Positions 1 to 33,462 of a stretch of 64,000 nt of DNA are shown here, in pieces. The stretch is from the NCBI RefSeq assembly GCF_009914755.1, contig NC_060933.1. The stretch is one strand, 5' to 3'. Below the pieces are notes generated by a model. That model was not told where the DNA came from, ran no database searches, and was given only the letters and a program-made list of their open reading frames with translations. The DNA comes from the human T2T-CHM13v2.0 reference genome, Homo sapiens. Within the stretch, counting starts at the first letter, position 1. Every line of letters begins with the position of its first letter. The position numbers and the translations under genes were made by a program.

Positions 1-33
1 GAATGGAATGGAATGGAATGGAATGGAATCAAC

Positions 34-47
34 TCGATTGCAATCGA
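34..47. other. 14-bp perfect palindrome TCGATTGCAATCGA (representative of a recurrent cassette)
   Basis: Self-reverse-complementary. Recurs on both arms, e.g. near 2660, 4381, 7604, 20695, 23528, 29869. Confidence 0.9.
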
Positions 48-2854: not shown

Positions 2855-2869
2855 GGAATCTTCCGGAAT
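2855..2869 (+). promoter_or_regulatory. Perfect three-unit heat-shock element (representative of ~50 copies in the window)
   Basis: gGAAt-cTTCc-gGAAt matches nGAAnnTTCnnGAAn exactly. HSF1 binding to satellite III in nuclear stress bodies is established, but occupancy of this copy is untested. Confidence 0.6.
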
Positions 2870-9000: not shown

Positions 9001-11639
9001 ATGGAATGGAATGTAATGGAGAGTAAGGGAGTTGAAAAGAATCAATCCGAATGTAATGGAATGGAACGGAATGGAATGGAATGGAATGGAATGGAATGCA
9101 ATGGAATGCAATGGAATGGAATCAACCCGAGTACAATGGAATGGAATGGAATGGAATGGAATGGAATGGAATGGAATGATACGGAATAGAATGGAATGGA
9201 ACGCAATGAAATGGAATGGAATGGAATGCAATGGAATGGAATGGAATGGAATGGAATCGTTCCGAGTGGAATAGGAGGGAATGTATTCGAGTGGAATGGA
9301 AAGGAATGGAATCAACAAGAGTGGAATGGAAGGGAATGGAATGGAATGGAAACTAATAGAATGGAATCAACCCGAGTGTAATGGAATGGAAAGGACTGGA
9401 ATAGAATGAAATGGAATCGAATCAACTCGACTGTAATGGAATGGAATGGAATGGAATAGAATGGAATGGAATGGAATGGAATCAACCCGAGTGCAATGGA
9501 ATGGAGTGGAATGGAATGGAATGGAATGGAACAACCCGAATGGAATGGAATGTAATGGAGAGTAAGGGAGTTGAATAGAAGCAATCCGAATGTAATGGAA
9601 TGGAATGGAACGGAATGGAATGGAATGGAATGGAATGGAATGCAATGGAATGGAATCAACCCGAGTTCAATGGAATGGAGAGGAATGGAATGGAATCGAA
9701 TGGAAACTACCCGAATGGAATGTAATGTAATGGAGTGTAAGGGAATTGAATAGAATCAATCCGAATGTAATGGAATGGAATGGAACGGAATGGAATGGAA
9801 AGGAATGGAATGGAATGGAATGGAATGGAATGGAATGGAATCAACTCGATTGCAATCGAATGCAATGGAATGGAATTAACCCGAATAGAATGGAATGGAA
9901 TGGAATGGGACGGAACGGAATGGAATGGAATGGAATGGAATGGAATGGAATGGAACGGAGCGGAATGGAATGGAATGGAATGGAATGGAATCAATGCGAG
10001 TGCAGTGGAATGGAATGGAATGGAATGCAATGGAATGGAATCTTCCGGAATGGAATGGAATGGAATGGAATGGAATGGAATGAAATGCAATGGATTCAAC
10101 TAGATTGCAATGGAATGGAATAGAATGGAATGGAATGGAATGGAATGGAATTAATCCGAATAGAATGGAATGGAATGGAATGGAACGGAATGGAACGGAA
10201 TGGAATGGAATGGAATGGAATGGTATGGAATGGAATGGAATGGTACGGAATAGAATGGAATGGAACGAATTGTAATGGAATGGAATTCAATGGAATGGAA
10301 TGGAATGGAATGGAATCAACGCGAATGCAGGGGAATGTAATGGAACGGAATGCAATGGAATGGAATCATCCGGAATGGAATGGAATGGAATGGAATCAAC
10401 CCGAGTGCAATGGAATGGAGTGGAATGGAATGGAATGCAATGGAACAAACCGAATGGAATGGAATGTAATGGAGAGTAAGGGAGTTGAATAGAATCAAAC
10501 CGAATGTAATGGAATGGAATGCAACGGAATGGAATGGAATGGAATGGAATGGAATGGAATGGAATGGAATGGAATGCAAAGGAATGGAATCAACCCGAGT
10601 GGAATGGCGTGGAATGGAATGCAATGGAATGGAATGGAATGGAATCAACTCGAGTGGAAAGGAATGGAATGGAATGGAAAGGCATGGAATGAAATCAACT
10701 CGAGTGGAATGGAATGGAATGGAATGGAATGGAATGGATTGCAATGGAATGAAATGGAATGGAATGGAATGGAATCAATCATTCCGACTGGAATGGAAGG
10801 GAATGTAATGGAGTGGAAAGAAGGGAATGGAATCAACCGAATTGGAATGCAAGGCAATGGAATGGAATGGAAAGGAATGGAATGGAATCAACTCGATTGG
10901 AATGGAATGGAATGGAATGGAATGGAATGGAATTAACCGGAATAGAATGGAATGCAATGGAATGGAACGGAATGGAATGGAAAGGAAGGGAATGGAATCA
11001 ACACGAGTGCAGGGGAATGCAATGGAATGGAATGCAATGGAATGGAATCATCCGGAATGGAATGGAATGGAATGGAATGGAATCAACTCCATTGCAATGG
11101 AATGGAATGGAATGGAATGGAATAGAATGGAAAGGAATTAACCCGAATAGAATGGAATGCAATAGAATGGAATGGAACGGAACTGAATGGAGTGGAATGG
11201 AATGGAATGGAATCAACCTGAGTGCAGGGGAATGGAATGGAATGGAATGCAATGGAATGGAATCATCCGGAATGGAATGGAATGGAATGGAATGGAATCA
11301 AACCGAGTGCAATGGAATGGAGTGAAATGGAATGGAATGGAATGGAAACAACCAGAATGGATTGGAATATAATGGAGTGTAAGGGAATTGAATAGAATCA
11401 ATCTGAATGTAATGAAATGGAATGGAACGGAATGGAATGGAATGGAATGGAATCGAATGGAATGGAATGGAATGGAATCAAGCAGAGTGCAATGGAATGG
11501 ATTCGAATGGAATGGAATGGAGTGGAATGGATTCAACCCGAATGGAATGGAAAGGAATGGAATCAACGCGAGTGGAATGGCATGGAATGGAATGGAATGG
11601 AATGCAATGGAATGGAATGGAACGGAACGGAATGGAACG

Positions 11640-13440
11640 GAACGGATCGGAGTGGAATGGAATGGAATGGAATTGTATGGAATGGAATGGAATGTTACGG
11701 AATAGAATGGAATGGAAAGAATTGGAATGGAATGGAATCGAATGGAATGGAATGGAATGGAATGGAATCAACCCGAGTGCAGGGGAATGTAATGGAACGG
11801 AATGCAATGGAATGGAATCATCCGGAATGGAATGGAATGGAATGGAATGGAATGGAATAAATCCGAGTGCAATGGAATGGAGTGGAATGGAATGGAATGG
11901 AATGGAACAACCCGAATGGAATGGAATGTAATGGAGAGTAAGGGAGTTGAATAGAATCAATCCGAATGTAATGGAATGGAATGCAACGGAATGGAATGGA
12001 ATGGAATGGAATGGAATGCAATGGAATGGAATCAACCCGAGTACAATGGAATGGAATGGAATGGAATGGAATGGAATGGAATGGAATGGAATGGAAGGGA
12101 ATGCCTTCAAACCGAATGGAATGGAAAGGAATGAAATCAACACGAGTGGAATGGAATGGAATGGAATGGAATGGAATGATACAGAATAGAATGGAATGGA
12201 ACGAAATGGAATGGAATGGAATGGAATGGAATGGAATGGAATGGAATGGAAAGGAATCGTTCCGAGTGGAATAGGAGGGAATGTATTCGAGTGGAATGGA
12301 AAGGAATGGAATCAACCAGAGTGGAATGGAAGGGAATGGAATGGAATGGAAACTAATAGAATGGAATCAATCCGAGTGGAATGGAATGGAAAGGACTGGA
12401 ATGGAAAGGAATGGAATGGAATGGAATGGAATGGAATGGAATCAACGCGAGTGCAGGGGAATGGAATGGAATCGAATGGAATGGAATGGAATGGAATGGA
12501 ATGGAATGGAATCAACCCGAGTGCAGGGGAATGTAATGGAACGGAATGCAATGGAATGGAATCATCCGGAATGGAATGGAATGGAATGGAATGGAATGGA
12601 ATCAACCCGAGTGCAATGGAATGGAGTGGAATGGAATAGAATGGAATGGAACAACCCGAATGGAATGGAATGTAATGGAGAGTAAGTGAGTTGAAAAGAA
12701 TCAATCCGAATGTAATGGAATGGAATGGAACGGAATGGAATGGAACGGAATGGAATGGAATGGAATGGAATGGAATGGAATGCAATGGAAAGGAATCAAC
12801 CCGAGTACAATGGAATGGAATGGAATGGAATGGAATGGAATGGAATGGAATGCAATGGAATGGAATCTTCCGGAATGGAATGGAATGGAATGGAATCGAA
12901 TGCAATGGATTCAACTCGATTGCAATGGAATGGAATAGAATGGAATGGAATGGAATGGAATGGAATTAAACCGAATAGAATGGAATGGAATTGAATGGAA
13001 CGGAACGGAACGGAACGGAACGGAACGGAGTGGAATGGAATGGAATGGAATTGTATGGAATGGAATGGAATGTTACGGAATAGAATGGAATGGAAAGAAT
13101 TGGAATGGAATGGAATCGAATGGAATGGAATGGAATGGAATGGAATCAACCCGAGTGCAGGGGAATGTAATGGAACGGAATGCAATGGAATGGAATCATC
13201 CGGAATGGAATGGAATGGAATGGAATGGAATGGAATAAATCCGAGTGCAATGGAATGGAGTGGAATGGAATGGAATGGAATGGAACAACCCGAATGGAAT
13301 GGAATGTAATGGAGAGTAAGGGAGTTGAATAGAATCAATCCGAATGTAATGGAATGGAATACAACGGAATGGAATGGAATGGAATGGAATGGAATGGAAT
13401 GCAATGGAATGGAATCAACCCGAGTACAATGGAATGGAAT
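11640..13440 (+). repeat. Direct duplication of ~0.4 kb at offset 1378 (~11640-12060 and ~13020-13440)
   Basis: GGAATAAATCCGAG at 11854 and 13232, with TGTTACGG and GGAAAGAATTGG in the same order in both copies. Confidence 0.75.
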
Positions 13441-16400
13441 GGAATGGAATGGAATGGAATGGAATCAATGCGAGTGCAGGGGAATGGAATGGAATGGAAT
13501 GCAATGGAATGGAATCTTCCGGAATGGAATGGAATGGAATGGAATGGAATGAAATGCAATGGATTCAACTCGATTGCAATGGAATGGAATAGAATGGAAT
13601 GGAATGGAATGGAATGGAATTAACACGAATAGAATGGAATGGAATGGAATGGAATGGAATGGAATGGAATCAACTCGATTGCAATCGAATGGAATGGAAT
13701 GGAATTAACCCGAATAAAATGGAACGGAATAGAACGGAACGGAACGGAAAGGAATGGAATGGAATGGAATGGAACGGAATGGAAGGGAATGGAATGGAAT
13801 AGAATGGAATGGAATGGAATGGAATCAACGCGAGTGCAGGGGAATGGAATGGAATGGAATGCAATGGAATGGAATCTTCTGGAATGGAATGGAATGGAAT
13901 GGAATGGAATGCAATGGATTCAACTCGATTGCAATAGAATGGAATAGAATGGAATGGAATGGAATGGAATTAACCCGAATAGATTGGAATGGAATGGAAT
14001 GGAACGGAACGGAACGGAACGGAATGGAATGGAATGGAATGGAATGGAATGGAATGGAATTGTATGGAATGGAATGGAATGGTACGGAATAGAAAGGAAT
14101 GGAAAGAATTGGAATGGAATGGAATCGAATGGAATGGAATGGAATGGAATGGAACGGAACGGAACGGAACGGAATGGAATGGAATGGAATGGAATGGAAT
14201 GGAACGGAAAGGAATGGAATGGAATGGAATGGAATGGAATGGAATCTTCCGGAATGGAATGGAATGGAATGGAATGGAACGGAATGGAATGCAATGGATT
14301 CAACTCGATTGCAATGGAATGGAATAGAATGGAATGGAATGGAATGGAATGGAATAGAATGGAATGGAATGGAATGGAATGGAATTAACCCGAATAGAAT
14401 GGAATGGAATGAAATGGAACGGAACGGAACGGAACGGAATGGAATGGAATGGAATGGAATGGAATGGAATGGAATTGTATGGAATTGAATGGAATGGTAC
14501 GGAATAGAATGGAATGGAATGGAATGGAATGGAATGGAATGGAATGGAATGGAATGGAATCAACCCGAGTGCAATGGAATGGAGTGGAATGGAATGGAAT
14601 GGAATGGAACAACCCGAATGGAATGTAATGTAATGGAGAGTAAGGGAGTTGAATAGAATCAATCCGAAAGTAATGGAATGGAACGGTATGGAATGGAATG
14701 GAATGGAATGGAATGGAATGGAATGGAATGGAATGGAATGCAATGGAATGGAATCAACCCGAGTACAATGGAATGGAATGGAATGGAATGCAATGGAATA
14801 TAATGGAATGGAATGGAATGGAATCAACCCGAGTGCAATGGAATGGAGAGGAATGGAATGGAATGGAATGGAAACTACCCGAATGGAATGGAATGTAATG
14901 GAGTGTAAGGGAATTGAATAGAATCAATCCGAATGGAATGGAATGGAATGGAACGGAATGTAATGGAATGGAATGGATTGGAATGGAATCAACCCGAGTG
15001 CAGGGGAATGGAATGGAATGGAATGCAATGGAATGGAATCATCCGGAATGGAATGGAATGGAATGGAATGGAATGGAATGGAATGGAATGGAATCAACCC
15101 GAGTGCAATGAAATGGAGAGGAATGGAATGGAATGGAATGGAAACTACCCGATTGGAATGTAATGTAATGGAGTGTAAGGGAATTGAATAGAATGAATCC
15201 GAATGGAATGGAATGGAATGGAACAGAATGGAACGGAATGCAATGGAATGGAATGGAATGGAATGGAATGGAATGGAATGGAATGGAATGGTATGGAATG
15301 GAATGGAATGGTACGGAATAGAATGGAAAGGAAAGAATTGGAATGGAATGGAATGGAATGGAATGGAATGGAATGGAATGGAATGGAATGGAATCAACCC
15401 GAGTGCAGGGGAATGTAATGGAACGGAATGCAATGGAATGGAATCATCCGGAATGGAATGGAAAGGAATGGAATGGAATGGAATGGAATGGAATGGAATA
15501 GAATGGAATAGAATGGAATCAACTCGATTGCAATCGAATGGAATGGAATGGAATTAACCCGAATAGAATGGAATGGAATGGAATGGAACGGAACGGAATT
15601 GAATGGAATGGAATGGAATGGAACGGAAAGGAATGGAATGGAATGGAATGGAATGGAATGGAATGGAATGGAATGGAATCAACGCGAGTGCAGGGGAATG
15701 GAATGGAATGGAATGGAATGGAATGGAATGGAATGGAATCAACCCGAGTGCAATGGAATGGAGTGGAATGCAATGGAATGGAATGGAACAAGCCGAATGG
15801 AATGGAATGTAATGGAGAGTAAGGGAGTTGAAAAGAATCAATCCGAATGTAATGGAATGGAATGGAACGGAATAGAATGGAATGGAATGGAATGGAATGG
15901 AATGGAATGCAATGGAATGTAATCAACCCGAGTGCAATCGAATGGAATCGAATGGAATGGAATGCAATGGAATGGATTCAACTTGAATGGAATGGAAAGA
16001 ATGGAATCAACACGAGTGGAATGGCATGGATTGGAATGGAATGGAATGGAATCAACCCAAGTACAGGGGAATGGAATGGAATGGAATGCAATGGAATGGA
16101 ATCATCCGTAATGGAATGGAAAGGAATGGAATGGAATGGAATGGAATGGAATGGAATGGATTGGAATCAACTCGATTGTAATCAAATGGAATGGAATGGA
16201 ATTAACCCCAATAGAATGGAATGGAATGGAATGGAACGGAACGGAATGGAAGGGAATGGAATGGAATGCAATGCAATGGAACGGAAAGGAATGGAATGGA
16301 ATGGAATGGAATGGAATGGAAAGGAATGGAATGGATTCAACGCGAGTGCAGGGGAATGGAATGGAATGGAATGCAATGGAATGGAATCTTCCGGAATGGA

Positions 16401-17139
16401 TTGGAATGGAATGGAATGGAATGCAATGGATTCAACTCGATTGCAATGGAGTGGAATAGAATGGAATGGAATGGAATGGATTTAACCCGAATAGAATGGA
16501 ATGGAATGGAATGGAACGGAACGGAACGGAACGGAACGGAATGGAATGGAATGGAAAGGAATGGAATGGAATTGTATGGAATGGAATGGAATGGTACGGA
16601 ATAGAATGGAATGGAAAGAATTGGAATGGAATGGAATCGAATGGAATGATATGGAATGGAATGGAATGGAATGGAATCAACCCGAGTGCAGGCGAATTTA
16701 ATGGAACGGAATGCAATGGAATGGAATCATCCGGAATGGAATGGAATGGAATGGAATGGATTGGAATCAACCCGAGTGCAATGCAATGGAGTGGAATGGA
16801 ATGGAATGGAATGGAACAGCACGAATGGAATGGAACGTAATGGAGAGTAAGGGAGTTGAATAGAATCAACCCGAATGTAATGGAATGGAATGGAACGGAA
16901 TGGAATGGAATGGAATGCAATGGAATGGAATCAACCCGAGTACAATGGAATGGAATGGAATGGAATGGAATGGAATGCAATATAATGGAATCAACCCGAG
17001 TGCAATCGAATGGAATCGAATGGAATGGAATGCAATGGAATGGATTCAACTTGAATGGAATGGAAAGAATGGAATCAACACGAGTGGAATGGCATGGAAT
17101 GGAATGGAATGGAATGGAATCAACCCGAGTACAGGAGAA

Positions 17140-17720
17140 TGGAATGGAATGGAATGCAATGGAATGGAATCATTAGTAATGGAATGGAAAGGAATGGAAT
17201 GGAATGGAATGGAATGGAATGGAATGGAATGAACTCGATTGCAATCGAATGGAATGGAATGGAATTAACCCGAATAGAATGGAATGGAATGGAATGGAAC
17301 GGAACGGAATGGAATGGAATGGAATGGAATGGAACGGAACGGAACGGAATGGAATGGCATGGAATGGAATTGAATGGAATGGAATCAACGCGAGTGCAGG
17401 GGAATGGAATGGAATGGAATGGAATGGAATGCAATGGAATGGAATCATTAGTAATGGAATGGAAAGGAATGGAATGGAATGGAATGGAATGGAATGGAAT
17501 GGAATGAACTCGATTGCAATCGAATGGAATGGAATGGAATTAACCCGAATAGAATGGAATGGAATGGAATGGAACGGAACGGAATGGAATGGAATGGAAT
17601 GGAATGGAACGGAACGGAACGGAATGGAATGGCATGGAATGGAATTGAATGGAATGGAATCAACGCGAGTGCAGGGGAATGGAATGGAATGGAATGGAAT
17701 GGAATGCAATGGAATGGAAT
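17140..17720 (+). repeat. 275-bp tandem duplication
   Basis: Rare variant CATTAGTAAT at 17171 and 17446, each followed by GAATGAACTCG. ORF offset 17204/17479. Confidence 0.92.
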
Positions 17721-20184
17721 CTTCCGGAATGGAATGGAATGGAATGGAATGGAATGCAATGGATTCAACTCGATTGCAATGGAATGGAATAGAATGGAAT
17801 GGAATGGAATGGAATGGATTTAACCCTAATAGAATGGAATGGAATGGAATGGAATGGAACGGAATAGAACGGAATGGAAAGGAATGGAATGGAATGCAAT
17901 GGAATGGAATGCTATGGAATGGAATGGAATGGTACGGAATAGAATGGAATGGAACGAATTGGAATGGAATGGAATCGAATGGAATGGAATGGAATGGAAT
18001 GGAATCAACGCGATTGCAGGGGAATGTAATAGAACGGAATGCAATGGAATGGAATCATCCGGAATGGAATGGAATGGAATGGAATGGAATGGAATGCAAT
18101 GGAATGGAATCAACCCGAGTGCAATGGAATGGAGTGGAATGGAATGGAATGGAATGGAAGAACCCGAATGGAATGGAATGTAATGGAGAGTAAGGGAGTT
18201 AAAAAGAATCAATCCGAAAGTAATGGAATGGAATGGAACGGAATGGAATGGAATGGAATGGAATGGAATGGAATGGAATGGAATGGAATCAACCCGAGTG
18301 CAATCGAATGGAATCGAATGGAATGGAATGCAATGGAATGGATTCAACTTGAATGGAATGGAAAGAATGGAATCAACACGAGTGGAATGCCATAGATTGC
18401 AATGGAATGGAATGGAATAAACCTGAGTACAGGGGAATGGAATGGAATGGAAAGCAATGGAATGGCATGATCCGAAATGGAATGGAAAGGAATGGAATGG
18501 AATTGAATGGGATGGAATGGCTTCAAACCGAATGGAATGGAAAGGAATGGAATCAACACGAGTGGAATGGAATGGAATGGAATGGAATGGAATGGAATGG
18601 AATGGAATGGTATGGAATAGAATGGAATGGAACGGAATGGAATGGAATAGAATGCAATGGAATGGAATGGAATTGTTCCGAGGGAATAGGAGGGAATGTA
18701 TTCGAGTGGAATGGAAAGGAATGGAATCAACCAGAGTGGAATGGAAGGGAATAGAATGGAATGGAAACTAATAGAATGGAATCAACCCGAGTGGAATGGA
18801 ATGGAAAGGAATGGAATGGAATGTAATGGAATGGAATGGAATATAATGGAATGGAATGGAATGGAATGGAATCAACTCGATTGTAATGGAATGGAATGGA
18901 ATGGAATGGAATGGAATGGAATGGAATGGAATGGAATTAACCCGAATACAATGGAATGGAATGCAATGGAACGGAATGGAGTGGAATGGAATGGAATCAA
19001 CCCGAGTGCAGGGGAATGGAATGGAATGGAATGCAATGGAATGGAATCATCCGGAATGGAATGGAATGGAATGGAATGCAATGCAATGGAATCAACTCGA
19101 TTGCAATGGAATGGAATGGAAAGGAATAGAATGGAATCAACCCGAGTGGAATGGAATGGAAAGGACTGGAATGGAGTGGAATGGAATGCAATGGAATGGA
19201 ATTAACTCGATTGGAATGGAATGGAAAGGAATGGAATGGAATTAACCCGAATAGAATGGAATGGAATGGAATGGAACGGAATGGAATAGAATGGAATGGA
19301 ATGGAATGGAATGGAATGGAATCAACCCGAGTGCAGGGGAATGGAATGGAATGGAATGCAATGGAATGGAATCATCCGGAACGGAATGGAATGGAATGTA
19401 ATGGAATCAACTCGATTGCAATGGAATGGAATGGAATGGAATGGAATGGAATGGAATGGAATTCACCCGAATAGAATGGAATGGAATGGAATGGAAAGGA
19501 ATGGAAGGGAAGGGAATGGAATGTAATCAACCCGAGTGCAGGGGAATGGAATGGAATGGAATGCAATGGAATGGAATCATCCGGAATGGAATGGAATTGA
19601 ATGGAATGGAATGGAATGGAATGGAATGGAATAGAATGCAATGGAATGGAATCAACCCGAGTACAATGGAATGGAATGGAATGGAATGGAATGGAGTGGA
19701 ATGGAATGGAATTGAATGGAATGGAATGCCTTCAAACTGAATGGAATGGAAAGGAATGTAATCAACACGAGTGGAATGGAATCGAATGCAATGGAATGGA
19801 ATGGAATGGAATGGTACGGAATAGAATGGAATGGAACGAAATGGAATGGAATGGAATGGAATGGAATGGAATGGAATGGAATGGAATGGAATGGAATCGT
19901 TCCGAGTGGAATAGGAGGGAATGTATTCGAGTGAAATGGAAAGGAATGGAATCAACCAGAGTGCAATGGAAAGGAATGGAATGGAATGGAAACTAATAGA
20001 ATGGAATCAACCCGAGTGGAATGGAATGGAAAGGACTAGAATGGAATGGAATGGAATGGAATGGAATGGAATGGAATCAACTCCATTGTAATGGAATGGA
20101 ATGGAATGGAAAGGAATGGAATGGAATGCAATGGAATTAACCCGAATACAATGAAAAGGAATGGAATGGAACGGAATGCAAAGC

Positions 20185-20212
20185 AATGGAATCAACTCGG
20201 GTTGATTCCATT
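20185..20212. other. Strand-inversion junction of the satellite array
   Basis: AATGGAATCAAC-TCGG-GTTGATTCCATT: 12-bp perfect inverted arms (20185-20196, 20201-20212) around a 4-nt spacer. Array orientation flips here with no foreign insert. Confidence 0.97.
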
Positions 20213-23200
20213 CCCTTCTTTCCATTCCATTCCATTCCATTCCATTCCGTTCCATTCCATTCCATTACATTCGGATTGATTCTATTCAATTCCCTTACAC
20301 TCCATTACATTCCATTCCATTCGGGTAGTTTCCACTCCATTCCATTCCCCTCCTCTCCATTCCATTGCACTCGGGTTGATTCCATTCCATTGCATTCCAT
20401 TCCATTCCATTCAATTCCATTCCGTTCCATTCCATTCCATTACATTCGGATTGATTCTATTCAACTCCCTTACTCTCCATTACATTCGATTCCATTCAGG
20501 TTGTTCCATTCCATTCCATTCCATTCCACTCCACTCCATTGCACTCGAGTTGATTCCATTCCATTCCATTCCATTCCGGAAGATTCCATTCCATTCCATT
20601 CCATTCCATTCCATTCCATTCCATTCCGTTCCGTTCCGTTCCGTTCCATTCCATTCCATTCCATTCTATTCGGGTTAATTCCATTCCATTCCATTCGATT
20701 GCAATCGAGTTGATTCCATTCCATTCCATTCCATTCCATTCCATTCCATTCCTTTCCTTTCCATTACGGATGATTCCATTCCATTGCATTCCATTCCATT
20801 CCATTCCCCTGTACTCGGGTTGATTCCATTCCATTCCATTCCAATCCATGCCATTCCACTCGTGTTGATTCCATTCTTTCCATTCCATTCAAGTTGAATC
20901 CATTCCATTGCATTCCATTCCATTCGATTCCATTCGATTGCACTCGGGTTGATTCCATTCCATTACATTCCATTCCATCCCATTTCATTCCATTCCATTC
21001 CTTTCCATTCCATTCCATTCCATTCCATGCGATTGCAATCGAGTTGATTCCATTCCATTCCTTTCCATTCCATTCCATTGCCTTGCATTCCACTCGGGTT
21101 GATTCCATTCCCTTCTTTCCACTCCATTACATTCCCTTCCATTCCACTCGGAATGATTGATTCCATTCCATTCCATTCCATTTCATTCCATTGCAATCCA
21201 TTCCAATCCATTCCATTATATTCCATTCCACTCGAGTTGATTTCATTCCATTCCTTTCCATTCCATTCCATTCCTTTCCACTCGAGTTGATTCCGTTCCA
21301 TTCCATTCCTTTGCATTCCATTCCATGCCATTCCACTCGGGTTGATTCCATTCCATTCCATTCCATTCCATTCCATTGCATTCCATTCCATTCCTTTCCC
21401 CTGCACTCGGGTTGATTCCATTCCTTTCCATTCCATTTAATTCCATTCCATGCCATTCCCTTCCATTCCAATCCATTCCATTCCACTGCATTCTATTCCA
21501 CTGCAATCGACTTGATTCCATTCCATTCCATTCTATTCCATTCCATTCCATTCCATTCCATTCCATTCCATTCCATTTTGTTCCAATCCATTCTATTCCG
21601 AACTATTCCATTCCATTCCATTCCATTCCATTGCATTCCATTCCATGCCATTCCACTCAGGTTGATTCCATTCCATTCCATTCCATTCGATTCCATTCCA
21701 TTCCATTCCATTCCGTTGCACTCCATTTCATTACATTCAGATTGATTCTATTCAATTCCCTAACACTCCATTATATTCCAATCCATTCTGGTTGTTTCCA
21801 TTCCATTCCATTCCATTTCACTCCATTCCATTGCACTGGGTTTGATTCCATTCCATTCCATTCCATTCCATTCCGGATGATTCCATTCCATTGCATTCCA
21901 TTCCATTCCATTCCCCTGCACTCAGGTTGATTCCATTCCATTCCATTCCAATCCATTCGGTTCCGTTCCATTCCATTCTATTGCATTCCATTCTATACGG
22001 GTTAATTCCATTCCATTCTATTCCATTCCATTCCACTCCATTCCATTCCATTGCAATGGAGTTGATTCCATTCCATTCCATTTCATTCCGGATGATTCCA
22101 TTCCATTGCATTCCATTCCATTCCATTCCCCTGCACTCGTGTTGATTCCATTACCTTCTATTCCATTCCATTCCGTTCCATTCCATTGCATTCCATTCTA
22201 TTGCAATCGAGTTGATTCCATTCCATTCCTTTCCATCCCATTCCATTGCCTTGCATTCCAATCGGGTTGATTCCATTCCCTTCTTTCCACTCCATTACAT
22301 TCCCTTCCATTCCACTCGGAATGATTGATTCCATTCCATTCCATTCCATTTCATTCCATTGCAATCCATTCCAATCCATTCCATTCCATTCCACTCGAGT
22401 TGATTTCATTCCATTCCTTTCCATTCCATTCCATTCCTTTCCACTCGAGTTGATTTCTTTCCATTCCATTCCATTGCATTCCATTCCATGCCATTCCACT
22501 CAGGTTGATTCCATTCCTTTGCATTCCATTCCATTCCATTGCATTCCATTCCATTCCATTCCGTTGCATTCCATTCCATTACATTCCGATTGATTCTATT
22601 CAACTCCCTTACTCTCCATTACATTCCATTCCATTCGGGTTGTTCCATTCCATTCCATTCCATTCCACTCCATTCCATTGCACTCGGGTTGATTCCATTC
22701 CATTCCATTCCATTCCATTCCATTCCATTCCATTCCATTCCGGATGATTCCATTCCATTGCATTCCGTTCCATTACATTCCCCTGCGCTCGCGTTGATTC
22801 CATTCCATTCCATTCCATTCCATTCAATTCCATTCCATTACAATTCGTTCCATTCCATTCTACTCCGTACCATTCCATTCCATTCCATACCATTCCATTC
22901 CGTTCCATTCCATTCCATTGCATTCCATTCCATTCCATTCCATTCCGTTCCATTCCATTCCATTCCATTCTATTCAGGTTAATCCCATTCCATTCCATTC
23001 CATTCTATTCGGATTAATTCCATTCCATGCCATTCCATTCCGTTCTATTCCATTCCATTGCAATCGAGTTGAATCCATTGCATTTCATTCCATTCCATTC
23101 CATTCCATTCCATTCCGGAAGTTTCCATTCCATTGTATTCCATTCCATTCCATTCAATTCCATTCCGTTCCATTCCATTCCATTACATTCGTATTGATTC

Positions 23201-23869
23201 TATTCAACTCCCTTAGTCTCCATTACATTCCATTCCATTCGGGTTGTTCCATTCCATTCCATTCCATTCCACTCCATTCCATTGCACTCGGGTTTATTCC
23301 CTACCATTCCATTCCATCCCATTCAATTCCATTCCATTCCGGAAGATTCCATTCCATTGCATTCCATTCCATTCCATTCCGCTGCACTCGCGTTGATTCC
23401 ATTTCATTCCATTCCATTCCATTCCATTCCGTTCCGTTCCATTCCATTCCATTCCATTCCATTCCATTCCGTTCCGTTCCATTCCATTCCATTCCATTCT
23501 ATTCGGGTTAATTCCATTCCATTCCATTCGATTGCAATCGAGTTGATTCCATTCCATTCCATTCCATTCCATTCCATTCCATTCCATTGCATTCCTTTCC
23601 ATTCCATTACGGATGATGCCATTCCATTGCATTCCATTCCATTCCATTCCCCTGTACTCGGGTTGATTCCATTCCACTCCATTCCAATCCATGCCATTCC
23701 ACTCGTGTTGATTCCATTCTTTCCATTCCATTCAAGTTGAATCCATTCCATTGCATTCCATTCCATTCGATTCCATTCGATTGCACTCGGGTTGATTCCA
23801 TTCCATTGCATTCCATTCCATTCCATTCCATTCCATTCCATTCCATTCCGTTCCATTCCATTCCATTAC

Positions 23870-26800
23870 ATTCGGATTGATTCTATTCAATTCCCTTACA
23901 CTCCATTACATTCCATTCCATTCGGGTAGTTTCCATTCCATTCCATTCCATTCCTCTCCATTCCATTGCACTCGGGTTGATGCCATTCCATTGCATTCCA
24001 TTGCATTCCATTCAATTCCATTCCATTCCATTACATTCGGATTGATTCTATTCAACTCCCTAACTCTCCATTACATTCCATTCCATTCGGGTTGTTCCAT
24101 TCCATTCCATTCCATTCCACTCCATTCCATTGCACTCGGGTTGATTCCATTCCATTCCATTCCATTCCATTCCGGAAGATTCCATTCCATTGCATTCCAT
24201 TACATTCCATTACCCTGCACTCGCGTTGATTCCATTCCATTCCATTCCATTCCATTCCGTTCCATTCCATTCCTTTCCGTTCCATTCCATTCCATTCCAT
24301 TCCGTTCCGTTCCGTTCCGTTCCATTCCATTCCATTCTATTCGGGTTAATTCCATTCCATTCCATTCGATTGCAATCGAATTGATTCCATTCCATTCCAT
24401 TCCATTCCATTCCATTCCATTCCATTCCATTCCTTTCCATTCCATTACGGATGATTCCATTCCATTGCATTCCATTCCATTCCATTCCCCTGTACTCGGG
24501 TTGATTCCATTCCATTCCATTCCAATCCATGCCATTCCACTCGTGTTGATTCCATTCTTTCCATTCCATTCAAGTTGAATCCATTCCATTGCATTCCATT
24601 CCATTCGATTCCATTCGATTGCACTCGGGTTGATTCCATGGCATTGCATTCCATTCCATTCCATTCCATTCCATTCCATTGCTTTCCATTCCATTCCATT
24701 CGGATTCATTCTATTCAATTCCCTTACACTCCATTACATTCCATTCCATTCGTGTAGTTTCCATTCCATTCCATTCCATTCCTCTCCATTCCATTGCACT
24801 CGGGTTGATTCCATTCCATTCCATTCCATTCCATTCCATTCCATTCCATTCCATTCCATTCCGGATGATTCCATTCCATTGAATTCCATTCCATTCCATT
24901 CCCCTGCACTTAGGTTGATTCCATTCCATTCCATTCCATTCCTTTCTGTTCCATTCAATTCCATTCCATTCCATTCTATTCGTGTTAATTCCATTCCATT
25001 CTATTCCATTCCATTCCATTGAAATCGAGTTGATTCCATTCCATTCCATTCCATTCCATTCCATTCCATTCCATTCCGGATGATTCCATTCCATTGCATT
25101 CCATTCCATTCCATTCCCCTGCACTCAGGTTGATTCCATTCCATTCCATTCCATTACATTCCATTCCATTCCGTCCCATTTCATTCTATTCGGGTTAATT
25201 CCATTCCATTCCATTCCACTCCATTCCAGTCCTTTCCATTCCATTCCACTCGGGTTGATTCCATTCTATTCCTTTCAATTCCATTCCATTCCATTGCAAT
25301 CGAGTTGATTCCATTCGAGTTGAATCCATTCCATTCCATTCCATTCAATTCCATTGCACACGGGTTCATTCCATTCCATTCCATTCCATTCCGTTCCATT
25401 CCATTCCATTCCATTTCATTCCATTCCATTCTATTCCGTACCATTCCATTCCATCCCATTCCATTCTGTTCCATTCCATGCCATTACACTCGGGTTGATT
25501 CCATTCCTTTCCATTCCATTCTTATTGAATCCATTCCATTCCAATCCATTCGAATCCATTCCATTGCACTCGGGTTGATTCCATTCCATTCCATTCCATT
25601 CCATTCCATTCCATTCCATTACATTCGGATTGATTCTATTCAATTCCCTTACACTCCATTACATTCCATTCCATTCGGGATGTTTCCATTCCATTCCATT
25701 CCATTCCACTCCATTCCATTGCATCAGGTTGATTGCATTCCATTCCATTCCATTCCATTCCGGATGATTCCATTCCATTGCATTCCATTCCATTCCATTC
25801 CATTCCCCTGCACTCGGGTTGATTCCATTCGATTCCATTCCATTCCATTCCATTCCATTCCGTTCCATTCCATTCCATTGCATTCTATTCCGGTTAATTC
25901 CATTCCATTCCATTCCATTCCATTCCATTCCATTCCATTCCATTCCATTCCATTCCATTGCCATCGAGTTGATTCCATTCCATTCCATTCCATTCCGTTC
26001 CGGATGATTCCATTCCATTCCATTCCATTCCCCTGCAGTCGGGTTGATTCCATTCCATTCCATTCCATTCCATTCCATTCCATTCCATTGCATTCCATTC
26101 TGTTCCATTCCATTCCATTCCATTCCATTCTATTCAGGTTAATTCCATTCCATTCCATTCCATTCCATTCCATTCCAATCGAGTTGATTCCATTCCATTC
26201 CATTCCATTCCACTACATTCCAGTCCTTTCCATTCCATTACACTCGGGTTGATTCCATTCTATTCCATTCTATTCCATTCCATTCCATTGCAATCGAGTT
26301 GATTCCATTGCTTTGCATTCCATTCCATTCCATTCCATTCCGGATGATTCCATTCCATTGCATTCCATTCCATTCCATTCCCCTGCACTCGGGTTGATTC
26401 CATTCCATTCCATTCCATTACATTCCATTCCATTCCGTCCCATTTCATTCTATTCGGGTTAATTCCATTCCATTCCATTCCACTCCATTCCAGTCCTTTC
26501 CATTCCATTCCACTCGGGTTGATTCCATTCTATTCCTTTCAATTCCATTCCATTCCATTGCAATCGAGTTGATTCCATTCGAGTTGAATCCATTCCATTC
26601 CATTCCATTCCATTCCATTGCACACGGGTTCATTCCATTCCATTCCATTCCATTCCGTTCCATTCCATTCCATTCCATTTCATTCCATTCCATTCTATTC
26701 CGTACCATTCCATTCCATCCCATTCCCTTCTGTTCCATTCCATGCCATTACACTCGGGTTGATTCCATTCCTTTCCATTCCATTCTTATTGAATCCATTC

Positions 26801-29800
26801 CATTCCAATCCATTCGAATCCATTCCATTGCACTCGGGTTGATTCCATTCCATTCCATTCCATTCCATTCCATTCCATTCCATTCCATTACATTCGGATT
26901 GATTCTATTCAATTCCCTTACACTCCATTACATTCCATTCCATTCGGGATGTTTCCATTCCATTCCATTCCATTCCACTCCATTCCATTGCATCAGGTTG
27001 ATTGCATTCCATTCCATTCCATTCCATTCCGGATGATTCCATTCCATTGCATTCCATTCCATTCCATTCCATTCCCCTGCACTCGGGTTGATTCCATTCG
27101 ATTCCATTCCATTCCATTCCATTCCATTCCGTTCCATTCCATTCCATTGCATTCTATTCCGGTTAATTCCATTCCATTCCATTCGATTCCATTCCATTCC
27201 ATTCCATTCCATTCCATTCCATTCCATTGCCATCGAGTTGATTCCATTCCATTCCATTCCATTCCGTTCCGGATGATTCCATTCCATTCCATTCCATTCC
27301 CCTGCAGTCGGGTTGATTCCATTCCATTCCATTCCATTCCATTCCATTCCATTCCATTCCATTCCATTGCATTCCATTCCGTTCCATTCCATTCCATTCC
27401 ATTCCATTCTATTCAGGTTAATTCCATTCCATTCCATTCCATTCCATTCCATTCCAATCGAGTTGATTCCATTCCATTCCATTCCATTCCACTACATTCC
27501 AGTCCTTTCCATTCCATTACACTCGGGTTGATTCCATTCTATTCCATTCTATTCCATTCCATTCCATTGCAATCGAGTTGATTCCATTGCTTTGCATTCC
27601 ATTCCATTCCATTCCATTCCGGATGATTCCATTCCATTGCATTCCATTCCATTCCATTCCCCTGCACTCGGGTTGATTCCATTCCATTCCACTCCATTCC
27701 TTTCCATTCCATTCCATTCCATTGTATTCGGGTTAATTCCATTCCATTCCATTCCATTCCATTCCATTCCAATACATTCCTTTACAATCGAGTTGATTCC
27801 ATTCCATTCCATTCCATTCCATTCCACTCCAGTCCTTTCCATTCCATTCCACTCGGGTTGATTCCATTCTATTAGTTTCCATTCCATTCCATTCCCTTCC
27901 ATTCCACTCTGATTGATTCCATTCCTTTCCATTCCACTCGAATACATTCCCACCTATTCCACTCGGAACGATTCCATTCCATTCCATTCCATTCCATTCC
28001 ATTCCATTCCATTCCATTCCAGTTCGTTCCATTCCATTCTATTCCGTACCATTCCTTTCCATTCCATTCCTTTCCACTCGTGTTGATTCCATTCCTTTCC
28101 ATTCCATTCGGTTTGAAGGCATTCCATTCCATTCAATTCCATTCCATTCCATTCCATTCCATTCCATTCCATTCCATTCCATTCCCCTGTACTCGGGTTG
28201 ATTCCAATCCATTCCATTCCAATCCATGCCATTCCACTCGTGTTGATTCCGTTCTTTCCATTCCATTCAAGTTGAATCCATTCCATTGCATTCCATTCCA
28301 TTCGATTCCATTCGATTGCACTCGGGTTGATTCCATTCCATTGCATTCCATTCCATTCCATTCCGTTCCATTCCATTCCATTACATTCGGATTGATTCTA
28401 TTCAATTCCCTTACACTCCATTACATTCCATTCCATTCGGGTAGTTTCCATTCCATTCCATTCCATTCCTCTCCATTCCATTGAACTCGGGTTGATTCCA
28501 TTCCATTGCATTCCATTCCATTCCATTCCATTCCATTCCGTTCCATTCCATTCCATTACATTCGGATTGATTCTATTCAACTCCCTTACTCTCCATTACA
28601 TTCCGTTCCATTCGGGTTGTTCCATTCCATTCCATTCCATTCCACTCCATTCCATTGCACTCGGGTTGATTCCATTCCATTCCATTCCATTCCATTCCAT
28701 TCCATTCCATTCCATTCCGTTCCGGAAGATTCCATTCCATTGCATTCCATTCCATTCCATTCCCCTGCACTCGCGTTGATTCCATTCCATTCCATTTGAT
28801 TCCATTCCATTCCATTCCATTCCATTCCGGAAGATTCCATTCCATTGCATTCCATTCCATTCCATTCCCCTGCACTCGCGTTGATTCCATTCCATTCCAT
28901 TCCATTCCATTCCATTCCGTTCCGTTCCGTTCCATTCCATTCCAATCCATTCCATTCCATTCCATTCCATTCCGTTCCGTTCCATTCCATTCCATTCCAT
29001 TCTATTTGGGTTAATTCCATTCCATTCCATTGGATTGCAATCGAGTTGATTCCATTCCATTCCATTCCATTCCATTCCATTCCATTCCATTCCTTTCCAT
29101 TCCATTACGGGTGACTCCATTCCATTGCATTCCATTCCATTCCATTCCCCTGTACTCGGGTTGATTCCATTCCATTCCATTCCAATCCATGCCATTCCAC
29201 TCGTGTTGATTCCATTCTTTCCATTCCATTCAAGTTGAATCCATTCCATTGCATTGCATTCCATTCGATTCCATTCGATTGCACTCGGGTTCATTCCATT
29301 CCATTCCATTCCATTCCATTCCATTCCGTTCCGTTCCATTCCATTCCATTCTATTCGGATTGATTCTATTCAATTCCCTTACACTCCATTACATTCCATT
29401 CCATTCGGGTAGTTTCCATTCCATTCCATTCCATTCCTCTCCATTCCATTGCACTCGGGTTGATTCCATTCAATTGCATTCCATTCCATTCCATTCAATT
29501 CCATTCCGTTCCATTCCATTCCATTACATTCGGAATGATTCTATTCAACTCCCTTACTCTCCATTACATTCCATTCCATTCGGGTTGTTCCATTCCATTC
29601 CATTCCATTCCACTCCATTCCATTGCACTCGGGTTGATTCCATTCCATTCCATTCCATTCCATTCCGGAAGATTCCATTCCATTGCATTCCATTACATTC
29701 CATTACCCTGCACTCGCGTTGATTCCATTCCATTCCATTCCATTCCATTCCGTTCCATTCCATTCCTTTCCGTTCCATTCCATTCCATTCCATTCCATTC

Positions 29801-32300
29801 CATTCCGTTCCGTTCCGTTCCGTTCCATTCCATTCCATTCTATTCGGGTTAATTCCATTCCATTCCATTCGATTGCAATCGAGTTGATTCCATTCCATTC
29901 CATTCCATTCCATTCCATTCCATTCCATTCCTTTCCATTCCATTACGGATGATTCCATTCCATTGCATTCCATTCCATTCCATTCCCCTGTACTCGGGTT
30001 GATTCCATTCCATTCCATTCCAATCCATGCCATTCCACTCGTGTTGATTCCATTCTTTCCATTCCATTCAAGTTGAATCCATTCCATTGCATTCCATTCC
30101 ATTCGATTCCATTCGATTGCACTCGGGTTGATTCCATGGCATTGCATTCCATTCCATTCCATTCCATTCCATTCCATTCCTTTCCATTCCATTCCATTCG
30201 GATTCATTCTATTCAATTCCCTTACACTCCATTACATTCCATTCCATTCGTGTAGTTTCCATTCCATTCCATTCCATTCCTCTCCATTCCATTGCACTCG
30301 GGTTGATTCCATTCCATTCCATTCCATTCCATTCCATTCCATTCCATTCCATTCCGGATGATTCCATTCCATTGAATTCCATTCCATTCCATTCCCCTGC
30401 ACTTAGGTTGATTCCATTCCATTCCATTCCATTCCTTTCTGTTCCATTCAATTCCATTCCATTCCATTCTATTCGTGTTAATTCCATTCCATTCTATTCC
30501 ATTCCATTCCATTGAAATCGAGTTGATTCCATTCCATTCCATTCCATTCCATTCCATTCCATTCCGGATGATTCCATTCCATTGCATTCCATTCCATTCC
30601 ATTCCCCTGCACTCGGGTTGATTCCATTCCATTCCATTCCATTCCATTCCATTCCATTCCATTCCACTCGGGTTGATTCCATTCTATTCCTTTCAATTCC
30701 ATTCCATTCCATTGCAATCGAGTTGATTCCATTCGAGTTGAATCCATTCCATTCCATTCCATTCCATTGCACACGGGTTCATTCCATTCCATTCCATTCC
30801 ATTCCGTTCCATTCCATTCCATTCCATTTCATTCCATTCCATTCTATTCCGTACCATTCCATTCCATCCCATTCCATTCTGTTCCATTCCATGCCATTAC
30901 ACTCGGGTTGATTCCATTCCTTTCCATTACATTCTTATTGAATCCATTCCATTCCAATCCATTCGAATCCATTCCATTGCACTCGGGTTGATTCCATTCC
31001 ATTCCATTCCATTCCATTCCATTCCATTCCATTACATTCGGATTGATTCTATTCAATTCCCTTACACTCCATTACATTCCATTCCATTCGGGATGTTTCC
31101 ATTCCATTCCATTCCATTCCACTCCATTCCATTGCATCAGGTTGATTGCATTCCATTCCATTCCATTCCATTCCGGATGATTCCATTCCATTGCATTCCA
31201 TTCCATTCCATTCCCCTGCACTCGGGTTGATTCCATTCCATTCCATTCCATTCCATTCCATTCCATTCCATTCCGTTCCATTCCATTCCATTGCATTCTA
31301 TTCCGGTTAATTCCATTCCATTCCATTCGATTCCATTCCATTCCATTGCATTCCATTCCATTGCCATCGAGTTGATTCCATTCCATTCCATTCCATTCCG
31401 TTCCGGATGATTCCATTCCATTCCATTCCATTCCATTCCATTCCCCTGCAGTCGGGTTGATTCCATTCCATTCCATTCCATTCCATTCCATTCCATTCCA
31501 TTGCATTCCATTCCGTTCCATTCCATTCCATTCCATTCCATTCTATTCAGGTTAATTCCATTCCATTCCATTCCATTCCATTCCATTCCAATCGAGTTGA
31601 TTCCATTCCATTCCATTCCATTCCACTACATTCCAGTCCTTTCCATTCCATTACACTCGGGTTGATTCCATTCTATTCCATTCTATTCCATTCCATTCCA
31701 TTGCAATCCAGTTGATTCCATTGCTTTGCATTCCATTCCATTCCATTCCATTCCGGATGATGCCATTCCATTGCATTCCATTCCATTCCATTCCCCTGCA
31801 CTCGGGTTGATTCCATTCCATTCCACTCCATTCCTTTCCATTCCATTCCATTCCATTGTATTCGGGTTAATTCCATTCCATTCCATTCCATTCCATTCCA
31901 TTCCAATACATTCCTTTACAATCGAGTTGATTCCATTCCATTCCATTCCATTCCATTCCACTCCAGTCCTTTCCATTCCATTCCACTCGGGTTGATTCCA
32001 TTCTATTAGTTTCCATTCCATTCCATTCCCTTCCATTCCACTCTGGTTGATTCCATTCCTTTCCATTCCACTCGAATACATTCCCTCCTATTCCACTCGG
32101 AACGATTCCATTCCATTCCATTCCATTCCATTCCATTGCATTCCATTCCATTCCATTCCAGTTAGTTCCATTCCATTCTATTCCGTACCATTCCTTTCCA
32201 TTCCATTCCTTTCCACTCGTGTTGATTCCATTCATTTCCATTCCATTCGGTTTGAAGGCATTCCATTCCATTCAATTCCATTCCATTCCATTCCATTCCA
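23870..32300 (-). repeat. ~5.5-kb-period duplication (~23870-28170 and ~29360-32300); the first copy contains the 1.27-kb duplication
   Basis: ORF offsets 24445/29943 (5498), 25354/30767 (5413) and 27517/31651 (4134). Shared markers ATTACCCTGCAC, CCATGGCATTG, CACTTAGGTTG, AATACATTCCTTTACAATCG. Confidence 0.85.
25080..27660 (-). repeat. ~1.27-kb tandem duplication
   Basis: ORF offsets 25181/26445 (1264) and 25636/26905 (1269). Shared markers CCGTCCCATTTC, GCACACGGGTTC, CTTATTGAATC, GCATCAGGTTG. Confidence 0.92.
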
Positions 32301-33462
32301 TTCCATTCCATTCCATTCTTTTCCATTCCATTGCAATCGAGTTGAATCCATTGCCTTTCATTCCATTCCATTCCATTACATTACATTCCGGAAGATTCCA
32401 TTCCATTGCATTCCATTCCATTCCATTCCCCTGCACTCGCGTTGATTCCATTCCATTCCATTCCATTCCATTCAATTCCATTCCATTCCATTCCTTTCTA
32501 TTCCATTACGGATGACTCCATTCCATTGCATTCCATTCCATTCCATTCCCCTGTACTCGGGTTGATTCCATTCCATTCCATTCCACTCCATTCGGTTCCG
32601 TTGCATTCCATTCTATTGCATTCCATTCTATTCGGGTTAATTCCATTCCATTCTATTCCATTCCATTCCATTCCATTCCATTGCAATGGAGTTGATTCCA
32701 TTCCCTTCCATTCCATTCCGGATGATTCCATTCCATTGCATTCCATTCCATTCCATTCCCCTGCACTCGTGTTGATTCCATTCCCTTCCATTCCATTCCA
32801 TTCCGTTCCATTCCCTTCCTTTCCGTTCTATTCCGGTTAATTCCATTCCATTCCATTCCATTCCATTCCATTCCACTCCATTGCAATCGAGTTGATTCCA
32901 TTCCATTCCTTTCCATTCCATTCCATTGCCTTGCATTGCACTCGGGTTGATTCCATTCCTTTCTTCCCACTCCATTACATTCCCTTCCATTCCACTCGGA
33001 ATGATTGATTCCATTCCATTCCATTCCATTTCATTCCATTGCAATCCATTCCAATCCATTCCGTTCCATTCCATTCCACTCGAGTTGACTTCATTCCATT
33101 CCTTTCCATTCCATTCCATTCCTTTCCACTCGAGTTGATTCCATTCCATTCCATTCCATTGCATTCCATTCTATGCCATTCCACTCGGGTTGATTCCATT
33201 CCTTTGCATTCCATTCCATTCCATTGCATTCCATTCCATTTCATTCCGTTGCATTCCATTCCATTACATTCGGATTGATTCTATTCAACTCCCTTACTGT
33301 CCATTACATTCCATTCCATTCGGCTTGTTCCATTCCATTCCATTCCATTCCACTCCATTGCATTGCACTCGGGTTGATTCCATTCCACTCCATTCCATTC
33401 CATTCCATTCCGGATGATTCCATTCCATTGCATTCCGTTCCATTACATTCCCCTGCACTCGC

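What the first reader, a model, noticed from the sequence alone, without database searches (positions are those of the whole stretch)
20165..20230. Three breakpoints within ~50 bp, including a 30-bp segment with an exact copy 897 bp away: template-switching signature
Seen: (1) At ~20178 GGAACGGAATG joins directly to CAAAGCAATGG, whereas the homologue at 49516-49640 has ~100 bp more in between (CAACCCGAGTGCAGGGG and CATCCGG cassettes). (2) The inversion lies at 20195-20199. (3) 20195-20224 (ACTCGGGTTGATTCCATTCCCTTCTTTCCA) matches 21092-21121 exactly, while related copies at ~10820, ~22261 and ~32940 carry mismatches. After 20224 the sequence abandons that cassette's usual continuation (CTCCATTACATTCCCTTCC). 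Inference: serial microhomology-mediated template switching (MMBIR/FoSTeS) or polymerase-theta templated insertion, rather than a simple crossover.
Basis: partly seen in the sequence, partly recalled or inferred. Interest (0 to 1): 0.8.

Follow-up and report, generated by a model that had tools for sequence, protein, structure and literature searches.

The report
Amplified ancient inversion junction in HSat3
The three-breakpoint join is real, but it is one old strand-switch junction of the chromosome 9 satellite that has been copied at least 53 times, and only one or two of the three breakpoints belong to the inversion itself.

Summary

The window's own assembly changes the interpretation. The whole composite junction recurs at at least 53 places on chr9 (51.07-75.68 Mb), in both orientations. 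44 of these are verified across all three breakpoints at 98-100% identity. It is therefore an old founder junction carried along by segmental duplications, some of them megabases long. It is not a private local event.

The same short cassette occurs in 10 non-inverted places, one of them 225/229 identical to the left arm.
- **Breakpoint 2 is a true head-to-head join.** It has 5-6 nt of microhomology (ACTCG) at the centre of a 28-nt near-palindrome.
- **Breakpoint 3 travels only with the junction lineage.** 39 of 42 chr9 occurrences are at junction copies. It could be a short templated insertion made with the inversion, or a private patch of the founder unit. I could not separate these.

A tail-to-tail junction 117 kb to the left has 80 exact copies, so most chr9 HSat3 strand switches look like copies of a few founder junctions.

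The parts
1..20198 (+). Left arm: HSat3B5 array read on its GGAAT strand (the inverted orientation relative to the right arm).
   Evidence: Strand profile. 20 of the 60 HSat3B5 diagnostic 24-mers in the window are on the minus strand.
20199..64000 (+). Right arm: HSat3B5 array read on its ATTCC strand. No further strand switch occurs up to the end of the window.
   Evidence: The next switch, a tail-to-tail junction, lies at chr9:55311640, 5.6 kb beyond the window end.
20185..20212 (.). 28-nt near-palindrome at the head-to-head junction. The axis lies between 20198 and 20199, and 13 of 14 pairs are complementary (T20197 opposite G20200 is the exception).
   Evidence: Read. It folds as a 12-bp stem hairpin, -13.2 kcal/mol, z = -4.85 against shuffles.
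20194..20199 (.). Microhomology at the inverted join: ACTCG (20195-20199), or AACTCG if the right parent carried the A variant.
   Evidence: The left-arm 27-mer 20173-20199 (9 other copies) and the right-arm 21-mer 20194-20214 (3 copies) overlap here. Uninverted left parents read ..CAACTCG|ATTGC. Normal right-type heads read ..CCACTCG|GGTTG.
20147..20199 (+). Short-form cassette. It lacks 100 nt relative to the common form, and the gap maps within GGAATG 20173-20178. It is a pre-existing subfamily, not a product of the inversion.
   Evidence: in-window comparison; 10 non-inverted copies elsewhere on chr9, with L040 identical at 225/229.
20195..20224 (+). 30-mer identical to the head of the 'X' cassette at 21092-21121. 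Only CTTCTTTCC (20215-20223) distinguishes it from the ordinary 172-nt-unit head.
20220..20334 (+). Body of an ordinary ~172-nt sub-unit, with a 115-nt exact match to 23821-23935. It overlaps the 30-mer by TTCCA (20220-20224).
21092..21140 (+). Complete X cassette 897 nt downstream, in the same orientation. It is the possible donor of the 30-mer.

Best explanation
This is one copy of a founder head-to-head strand-switch junction of the chr9 HSat3B5 array.

Shown:
- The identical composite junction is present at >=53 places on chr9, in both orientations, so it arose once and was spread by segmental duplication.
- The spacing pattern of the copies repeats at offsets of about 10.58 Mb and 8.74 Mb.
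- The left 'deletion' is an older cassette subfamily that also exists uninverted.

Inferred:
- The inversion join was a single microhomology-mediated inverted joining. The GGAAT strand of a short-form cassette ended in ..CAACTCG. The ATTCC strand of a unit head began ACTCGGGTTG... They joined on the 5 nt ACTCG.
- That motif core, ACYCGRGT, is nearly self-complementary, so two direct copies of the motif offer an inverted microhomology.
- The junction did not come from a long fold-back, because the arms are not mirror images beyond 14 nt.

Open:
- The CTTCTTTCC patch 16-25 nt to the right belongs to the founder lineage only.
- I put about 55% on a separate short exchange (conversion or unequal crossover with an X cassette) in the founder unit before amplification.
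- I put about 40% on a second template switch in the same event, that is, a 24-29-nt templated insertion from the X cassette 0.9 kb away.
For: Copy number and identity:
- A 121-nt query spanning all three breakpoints gave 40 full-length hits at 98-100%, 11 of them at 100% including the window's own. Only 40 of 273 first-look candidates were scored.
- The exact core 18-mer has 47 chr9 hits. Six further copies have one-base core variants.
- 44 of the 53 copies are verified across the whole composite.
- The 30 fetched loci represent 27 distinct places. All show the strand switch, the short cassette and the patch.

Single origin rather than a hotspot:
- GAATCAACYCGRGTTGATTC has 44 sites genome-wide. 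All are on chr9 and all are the TCGG/CCGA form.

Spread by large duplications:
- The spacing series of the copies repeats.
- The neighbouring tail-to-tail junctions lie at -117,431 and +49,450 nt from this copy, and at -117,341 and +49,471 nt from the copy at 65.84 Mb.

Deletion pre-existing.

No mirrored arms.

Patch confined to the junction lineage:
-.
- The two non-inverted hybrids (L052, L056) sit in a tandem duplicate of the 977-nt junction-proximal unit, which matches at 909/940.
Against: - 9 of the 53 copies are known only from partial exact patterns.
- The counts are lower bounds from exact-pattern searches, and the tool states that repeat counts are lower bounds.
- Against the 'separate patch' leaning: the patch abuts the junction. 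On chr9 its join is absent from uninverted sequence except for two derived duplicates and one independent site. An exact donor lies 897 nt away. At J = 3 the clustering is unique in the window.
- The topology of the founder event (simple inversion, inverted insertion or other) is unresolved. The left flank of the 80-copy tail-to-tail family matches the uninverted continuation of the left parent only at background level, 168-177 of 202-205 aligned bases.
Confidence: 0.75

Rival explanations
1. One reading: one replicative event (MMBIR/FoSTeS or polymerase theta) made all three breakpoints by serial template switching at this locus.
For: - Three copying-model jumps lie within 52 nt.
- Each join has 5-6 nt of overlap: GGAATG, AACTCG and TTCCA.
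Against: - The short cassette with the same join exists uninverted in 10 places, one of them 225/229 identical over 229 nt.
- The composite is an amplified founder, not a local event.
- Overlaps of 5 nt are trivial in a pentamer satellite.
- At J = 2, five other three-jump clusters occur in uninverted sequence nearby.
Confidence: 0.03
2. A two-step template switch in the founder event. The nascent GGAAT strand ending in ..CAACTCG annealed through ACTCG to an X cassette about 0.9 kb away and copied 24-29 nt. It then switched through TTCCA into the ATTCC run of a 172-nt unit. Breakpoints 2 and 3 would then be one event and breakpoint 1 would be older.
For: - An exact 30-nt donor lies 897 nt away in the right orientation.
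- The join CCCTTCTTTCCATTCCATTCCATTCC occurs 42 times on chr9. 39 are at junction copies, 2 are in a derived tandem duplicate and 1 is elsewhere.
- No junction copy seen lacks the patch.
Against: - Any private variant of the founder unit would show the same exclusive linkage.
- The neighbourhood is highly mosaic.
- L053 shows that a similar join forms without an inversion.
- The equally close left breakpoint proved to be unrelated.
Confidence: 0.4
3. Recurrent, independent inversions at a hotspot created by the quasi-palindromic CAACYCGRGTTG motif.
For: - The junction lies exactly on the dyad of the motif.
- It folds as a hairpin with z = -4.85.
- Tail-to-tail joins at the same motif exist at 14 sites on chr5, 9, 13, 14 and 21.
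Against: - All 44 genome-wide sites matching the degenerate head-to-head pattern are the same TCGG/CCGA form on chr9.
- All 27 distinct fetched copies share the same idiosyncratic flanks for hundreds to thousands of bases.
Confidence: 0.02
4. An assembly artefact at the strand switch.
For: None from my calls. Satellite arrays are hard to assemble.
Against: - The same junction sits in >=53 places with diverged and differently sized flanks.
- Published work reports many strand switches in this array in several assemblies.
Confidence: 0.01

Closest known systems
Strand switches ('inversion breakpoints') of the chr9 HSat3B5 array. Altemose et al., bioRxiv 10.1101/2021.07.12.452052, section 7 read. 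10.64898/2026.09.03.749043 and 10.64898/2026.07.22.740206, passages read.
   Same: This is one of those switches. The papers report over 200 breakpoints (HSat3B5 plus beta satellite), about 129 switches per haplotype on chr9, and a count that scales with array length (r = 0.90).
   Different: In the text I could see, the switches are counted but their junction sequences are not described. One preprint calls them randomly distributed stochastic by-products of expansion. Here at least 53 head-to-head and 80 tail-to-tail switches fall into just two junction families, identical by descent. The supplements of these preprints were not readable here and may bear on this.
Replicative template-switch rearrangements (FoSTeS/MMBIR) and polymerase-theta templated insertions. 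These names and their properties are recalled, not taken from a call.
   Same: An inverted join on 5 nt of microhomology, with a possible 24-29-nt insertion copied from a site 0.9 kb away and a second short overlap.
   Different: A single-event origin cannot be shown. One of the three proposed switches is an older variant. Microhomology is uninformative in a pentamer repeat.
Fold-back inversions and palindromic amplification junctions (recalled).
   Same: A head-to-head join with a short palindromic centre that can form a hairpin.
   Different: The arms are not mirror images beyond 14 nt. The best reverse-strand matches of each arm lie kilobases away at 82-87% identity.

Membership tests
HSat3 subfamily B5 (chr9 pericentromeric satellite) | Carries the subfamily's diagnostic 24-mer listed in Altemose et al. 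2014 (PMC4022460 table, seen). | tested here: met
   60 exact copies in the window: 40 on the plus strand and 20 on the minus strand.
HSat3 subfamily B5 (chr9 pericentromeric satellite) | Located in the large chr9 array. | tested here: met
   The window is G000:C9:55242001-55306000. The hub annotation says the same.
Complex template-switch junction (FoSTeS/MMBIR type) | Two or more joins created in one event, that is, none of the joins exists apart from the rearranged allele. | tested here: not met
   The left join exists in 10 uninverted places. The right join is confined to the junction lineage, 39 of 42 chr9 occurrences. The criterion therefore fails for three joins and stays open for two.
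Complex template-switch junction (FoSTeS/MMBIR type) | Microhomology at each join. | tested here: met
   GGAATG, AACTCG and TTCCA overlaps. This is expected by chance in this repeat.
Complex template-switch junction (FoSTeS/MMBIR type) | The inserted segment has an identifiable nearby template. | tested here: met
   20195-20224 equals 21092-21121 exactly, 897 nt away and in the same orientation.
Fold-back (palindromic) inversion | The two arms are reverse complements of each other outward from the junction. | tested here: not met
   Complementarity ends after 14 nt. No reverse-strand match of either arm lies next to the junction.
Simple two-break inversion whose partner is the 80-copy tail-to-tail family | The flank of the partner junction continues the uninverted parent of this junction's arm. 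| tested here: inconclusive
   168-177 of 202-205 aligned bases match, which is background level for this satellite.

The most novel reading that the evidence does not exclude
Nearly all strand switches of the 27.6-Mb chr9 satellite block are identical-by-descent copies of a handful of founder junctions. Array growth, not recurrent inversion, would then explain why the switch count tracks array length. The founder head-to-head junction would itself have been made by a two-step replicative template switch, seeded by the self-complementary ACYCGRGT core of the HSat3 motif and leaving a 24-29-nt templated insertion.
Probability: 0.35. Interest if true: 0.6.

Novelty: new member of a known kind. 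Interest (0 to 1): 0.45.

Why it matters
Strand switches in the chr9 heterochromatin block have been counted, but in the texts I could read their junctions are not described. One recent preprint treats them as random by-products of expansion.

If most are copies of a few founder junctions, two things follow:
- They become markers of descent for reconstructing how the largest human satellite array grew, including duplications of about 10 Mb.
- Counts of 'inversions' in such arrays greatly overstate the number of inversion events.

For the finding itself there is a caution. Breakpoint clusters read from one window of a satellite can mix an old cassette variant with a true rearrangement join.

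Tried and rejected
- **First BLAST of the arms.** A blastn run with short words timed out. I replaced it with megablast.
- **Uninformative patterns.** Two pattern searches had a badly chosen last or first letter, which excluded every real copy. I repeated them correctly.
- **Generic head-to-head pattern.** AATGGAATN{0,14}ATTCCATT returned 394 sites genome-wide, but the listing stopped before chr9. It gave no count of other chr9 junction families.
- **Tail-to-tail switch at the midpoint.** I looked at the midpoint of the 29.6-kb pair of junction copies. The midpoint is all GGAAT strand, and the switch lies off-centre at 53795432.
- **Reciprocity test.** I asked whether the 80-copy tail-to-tail junction is the reciprocal end of the same inversion. 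Identity was at background level, so the result is inconclusive.
- **Single-deletion reading of the hybrid unit.** I asked whether 20195-21130 is the next unit (21092-22300) minus one clean deletion. The alignment gives 819/906 matches with many indels, so there is no clean answer.
- **chr10 hits.** The four chr10 hits to the core 18-mer have ATTCC strand on both sides. They are not strand switches.
Full report
**What is in the window**

The 64-kb window is chr9 HSat3B5 satellite. It holds 60 copies of the subfamily's diagnostic 24-mer. There is exactly one strand switch: GGAAT strand up to about 20197, ATTCC strand afterwards.

The join reads ..GGAATGCAAAGCAATGGAATCAACTCG|GGTTGATTCCATTCCCTTCTTTCC... 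It is the centre of a 28-nt near-palindrome (20185-20212), in which 13 of 14 pairs are complementary. It folds as a 12-bp hairpin, -13.2 kcal/mol, z = -4.85.

Longest exact matches elsewhere in the window:
- The left-arm sequence reaches 20199. The 27-mer 20173-20199 has 9 other copies.
- The right-arm sequence starts at 20194. The 21-mer 20194-20214 has 3 copies.
- The two therefore overlap by AACTCG.

- *Shorter cassette.* The focal copy of the cassette GTTGATTCCATTGCTTTGCATTCC is 100 nt shorter than the copy at 49505. It has 26 nt before TTCGGGTTAA, against 121-181 nt in nine of the ten other in-window copies.
- *The 30-mer.* 20195-20224 equals 21092-21121 exactly and extends on neither side.
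- *Unusual continuation.* The other three exact copies of ATTCCCTTCTTTCCA continue CTCCATTACATTCCCTTCC, and the focal one does not.
- *What follows.* From 20220 the sequence is an ordinary ~172-nt sub-unit, with a 115-nt exact match at 23821. Overall the right flank aligns well to 23782-24100, apart from an 11-nt indel exactly at CTTCTTTCC.

**Chance**

An exact 30-mer match means little here, because 83% of the window's 30-mers have another exact copy.

I ran a copying model over the whole window (mismatch cost 1, jump cost J, self within ±100 nt excluded).

| J | Jumps in window | Clusters of 3 jumps within 52-60 nt | Focal site |
|---|---|---|---|
| 2 | 273 | 6, all between 17.8 and 21.5 kb, 5 of them in uninverted sequence | 3 jumps |
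| 3 | 227 | 1, the focal site only | 3 jumps (20172, 20194, 20223) |
| 5 | 195 | none | 2 jumps |

The clustering is therefore real but not robustly exceptional. The neighbourhood is simply very mosaic.

**The decisive evidence came from the window's own assembly**

- A 121-nt query (20140-20260) covering all three breakpoints found 40 full-length matches at 98-100% identity on chr9. Eleven are at 100%, including the window's own. Only 40 of 273 candidates were scored.
- The core 18-mer AATCAACTCGGGTTGATT has 47 exact chr9 hits between 51.07 and 75.68 Mb, in both orientations.
- It also has 4 chr10 hits. These have ATTCC strand on both sides and are unrelated.
- Six more chr9 copies have a one-base variant of the core.
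- That gives at least 53 copies. 44 are verified across the whole composite and 9 are known from partial patterns only.
- I fetched 30 loci representing 27 distinct places. Every one shows the strand switch, the short cassette and the patch.
- Identity to the window stays at 95-99% for 0.5 to more than 5 kb on either side, depending on the copy.
- The degenerate pattern GAATCAACYCGRGTTGATTC has 44 sites in the genome. All are on chr9 and all are of this one form. That argues for one origin rather than a hotspot.
- The order and spacing of the copies repeat at offsets of about 10.58 Mb and 8.74 Mb. Very large duplications therefore carried the junction.

**Breakpoint 1 (the deletion)**

The 26-mer ACGGAATGCAAAGCAATGGAATCAAC, which spans the join, has 61 hits.
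- 42 hits are followed by the inverted continuation.
- 19 hits are followed by the normal TCGATTGCA.
  - 9 of these are the ordinary long cassette with a T>C change.
  - 10 are the same short cassette.

L040 matches window 19971-20199 at 225/229 without a gap. The short family also has internal variants: GAAAAGG, GGAATGG and GAAATGG..GGT forms. The short cassette is therefore an established subfamily, and the inversion happened in one of its members.

**Breakpoint 3 (the 30-mer)**

- GTTGATTCCATTCCCTTCTTTCCATT occurs in 14 uninverted places. Of these, 11 are normal X cassettes with a C>T change.
- Two (L052, L056) carry the same hybrid as the focal right flank. They lie 977 nt from junction copies, inside a tandem duplicate of the junction-proximal unit (909/940 identity), so they are derived.
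- One (L053) is a different local duplication. It shows that the X-start-to-ATTCC-run join can arise on its own.
- The 26-mer join CCCTTCTTTCCATTCCATTCCATTCC occurs 46 times genome-wide. 42 are on chr9, and 39 of those are at junction copies.

The patch is thus private to the junction lineage. It was made either with the inversion, or in the founder unit shortly before or after it. Every copy descends from that founder, so the linkage cannot tell these apart.

**Mechanism**

- The parents read ..CAACTCG|ATTGC on the left (uninverted copies) and ..CCACTCG|GGTTG on the right. They share ACTCG.
- The motif core ACYCGRGT is nearly its own reverse complement. A 3' end ..ACTCG on the GGAAT strand can therefore pair with CGAGT on another GGAAT strand and be extended as GGTTGATTCC. 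That gives exactly the observed join.
- This step is inferred.
- The arms are not mirrored, so it was not a long fold-back.

**Wider context**

- Between this junction and the copy 197.5 kb to the left there is a single switch at 9-kb resolution.
- It is a tail-to-tail join..CCATTCCATTGCAC|ACGGAATGGAATGG.., at chr9:55144759. Its 28-mer has 80 exact copies, all on chr9. One lies 5.6 kb beyond the window end.
- A second tail-to-tail join, inside a 29.6-kb pair of junction copies, has only 2 copies.
- When all 135 junctions are ordered along the chromosome, 81 of 134 neighbouring pairs alternate. There are 41 tail-tail and 12 head-head adjacencies, which imply further unassigned switches.
- Published texts report more than 200 breakpoints (with beta satellite), about 129 switches per haplotype, and a correlation with array length that one preprint interprets as stochastic by-products.
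- I found no description of junction families in two searches or in the passages I read. The supplements of those preprints were not available to me.
- Whether the 80-copy tail-to-tail family is the reciprocal end of this junction could not be settled.

**Verdict**

One breakpoint is an older variant, one is a true microhomology join, and one may or may not be a templated insertion. The whole composite is an old junction that has been amplified many times.

Noticed in passing
G000 chr9:55144759-55144786 (117 kb left of the junction); another copy at chr9:55311640, 5.6 kb beyond window position 64000: The tail-to-tail strand switch CCATTCCATTGCAC|ACGGAATGGAATGG has 80 exact copies, all on chr9 between 52.34 and 76.36 Mb (47 forward, 33 reverse).
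   Followed up: partly
G000 chr9, junction coordinates listed: The order and spacing of the junction copies repeat at offsets of about 10.58 Mb (55.06-60.83 vs 65.64-71.44 Mb) and about 8.74 Mb (52.35-54.28 vs 61.09-63.08 Mb). This indicates multi-megabase duplications inside the array.
   Followed up: partly
G000 chr9:53795432 and chr9:62555509 (L089 positions ~583-609): A different tail-to-tail join, ..CCATTCCATTCCGTAATGGAATGG.., lies off-centre within a 29.6-kb pair of oppositely oriented junction copies. It has only two copies in the genome.
   Followed up: yes
G000 chr9, ordered list of 135 junctions: There are 41 adjacent tail-tail pairs and 12 adjacent head-head pairs. These imply at least 41 head-to-head and 12 tail-to-tail switches that belong to other families or to diverged copies.
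   Followed up: no
L069 (G000 chr9:58699600-58701899): In this junction copy, and in its duplicate at 69.32 Mb, the 977-nt unit next to the junction is tandemly duplicated (909/940 identity). The boundary appears to lie at the shared 30-mer.
   Followed up: yes
G000 chr5, 9, 13, 14, 21: Tail-to-tail joins centred on the same quasi-palindromic motif (ATTCCACYCGRGTGGAAT) occur at 14 sites. Most are on the acrocentric short arms, and only one is on chr9 (48.81 Mb).
   Followed up: no
window ~34500-48700: This stretch is very young duplicated sequence. The copying model needs only 5 jumps in 36001-48000, and identical hit statistics recur 7941 nt apart. This suggests a recent ~8-kb tandem duplication.
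   Followed up: no
L064-L067 (G000 chr10:42.22-42.34 Mb): Four copies of the core 18-mer sit in uniformly ATTCC-strand HSat3 (..CCCTTCC AATCAAC TCGGGTTGATTCC..). This is a tiny local oddity, not a strand switch.
   Followed up: partly
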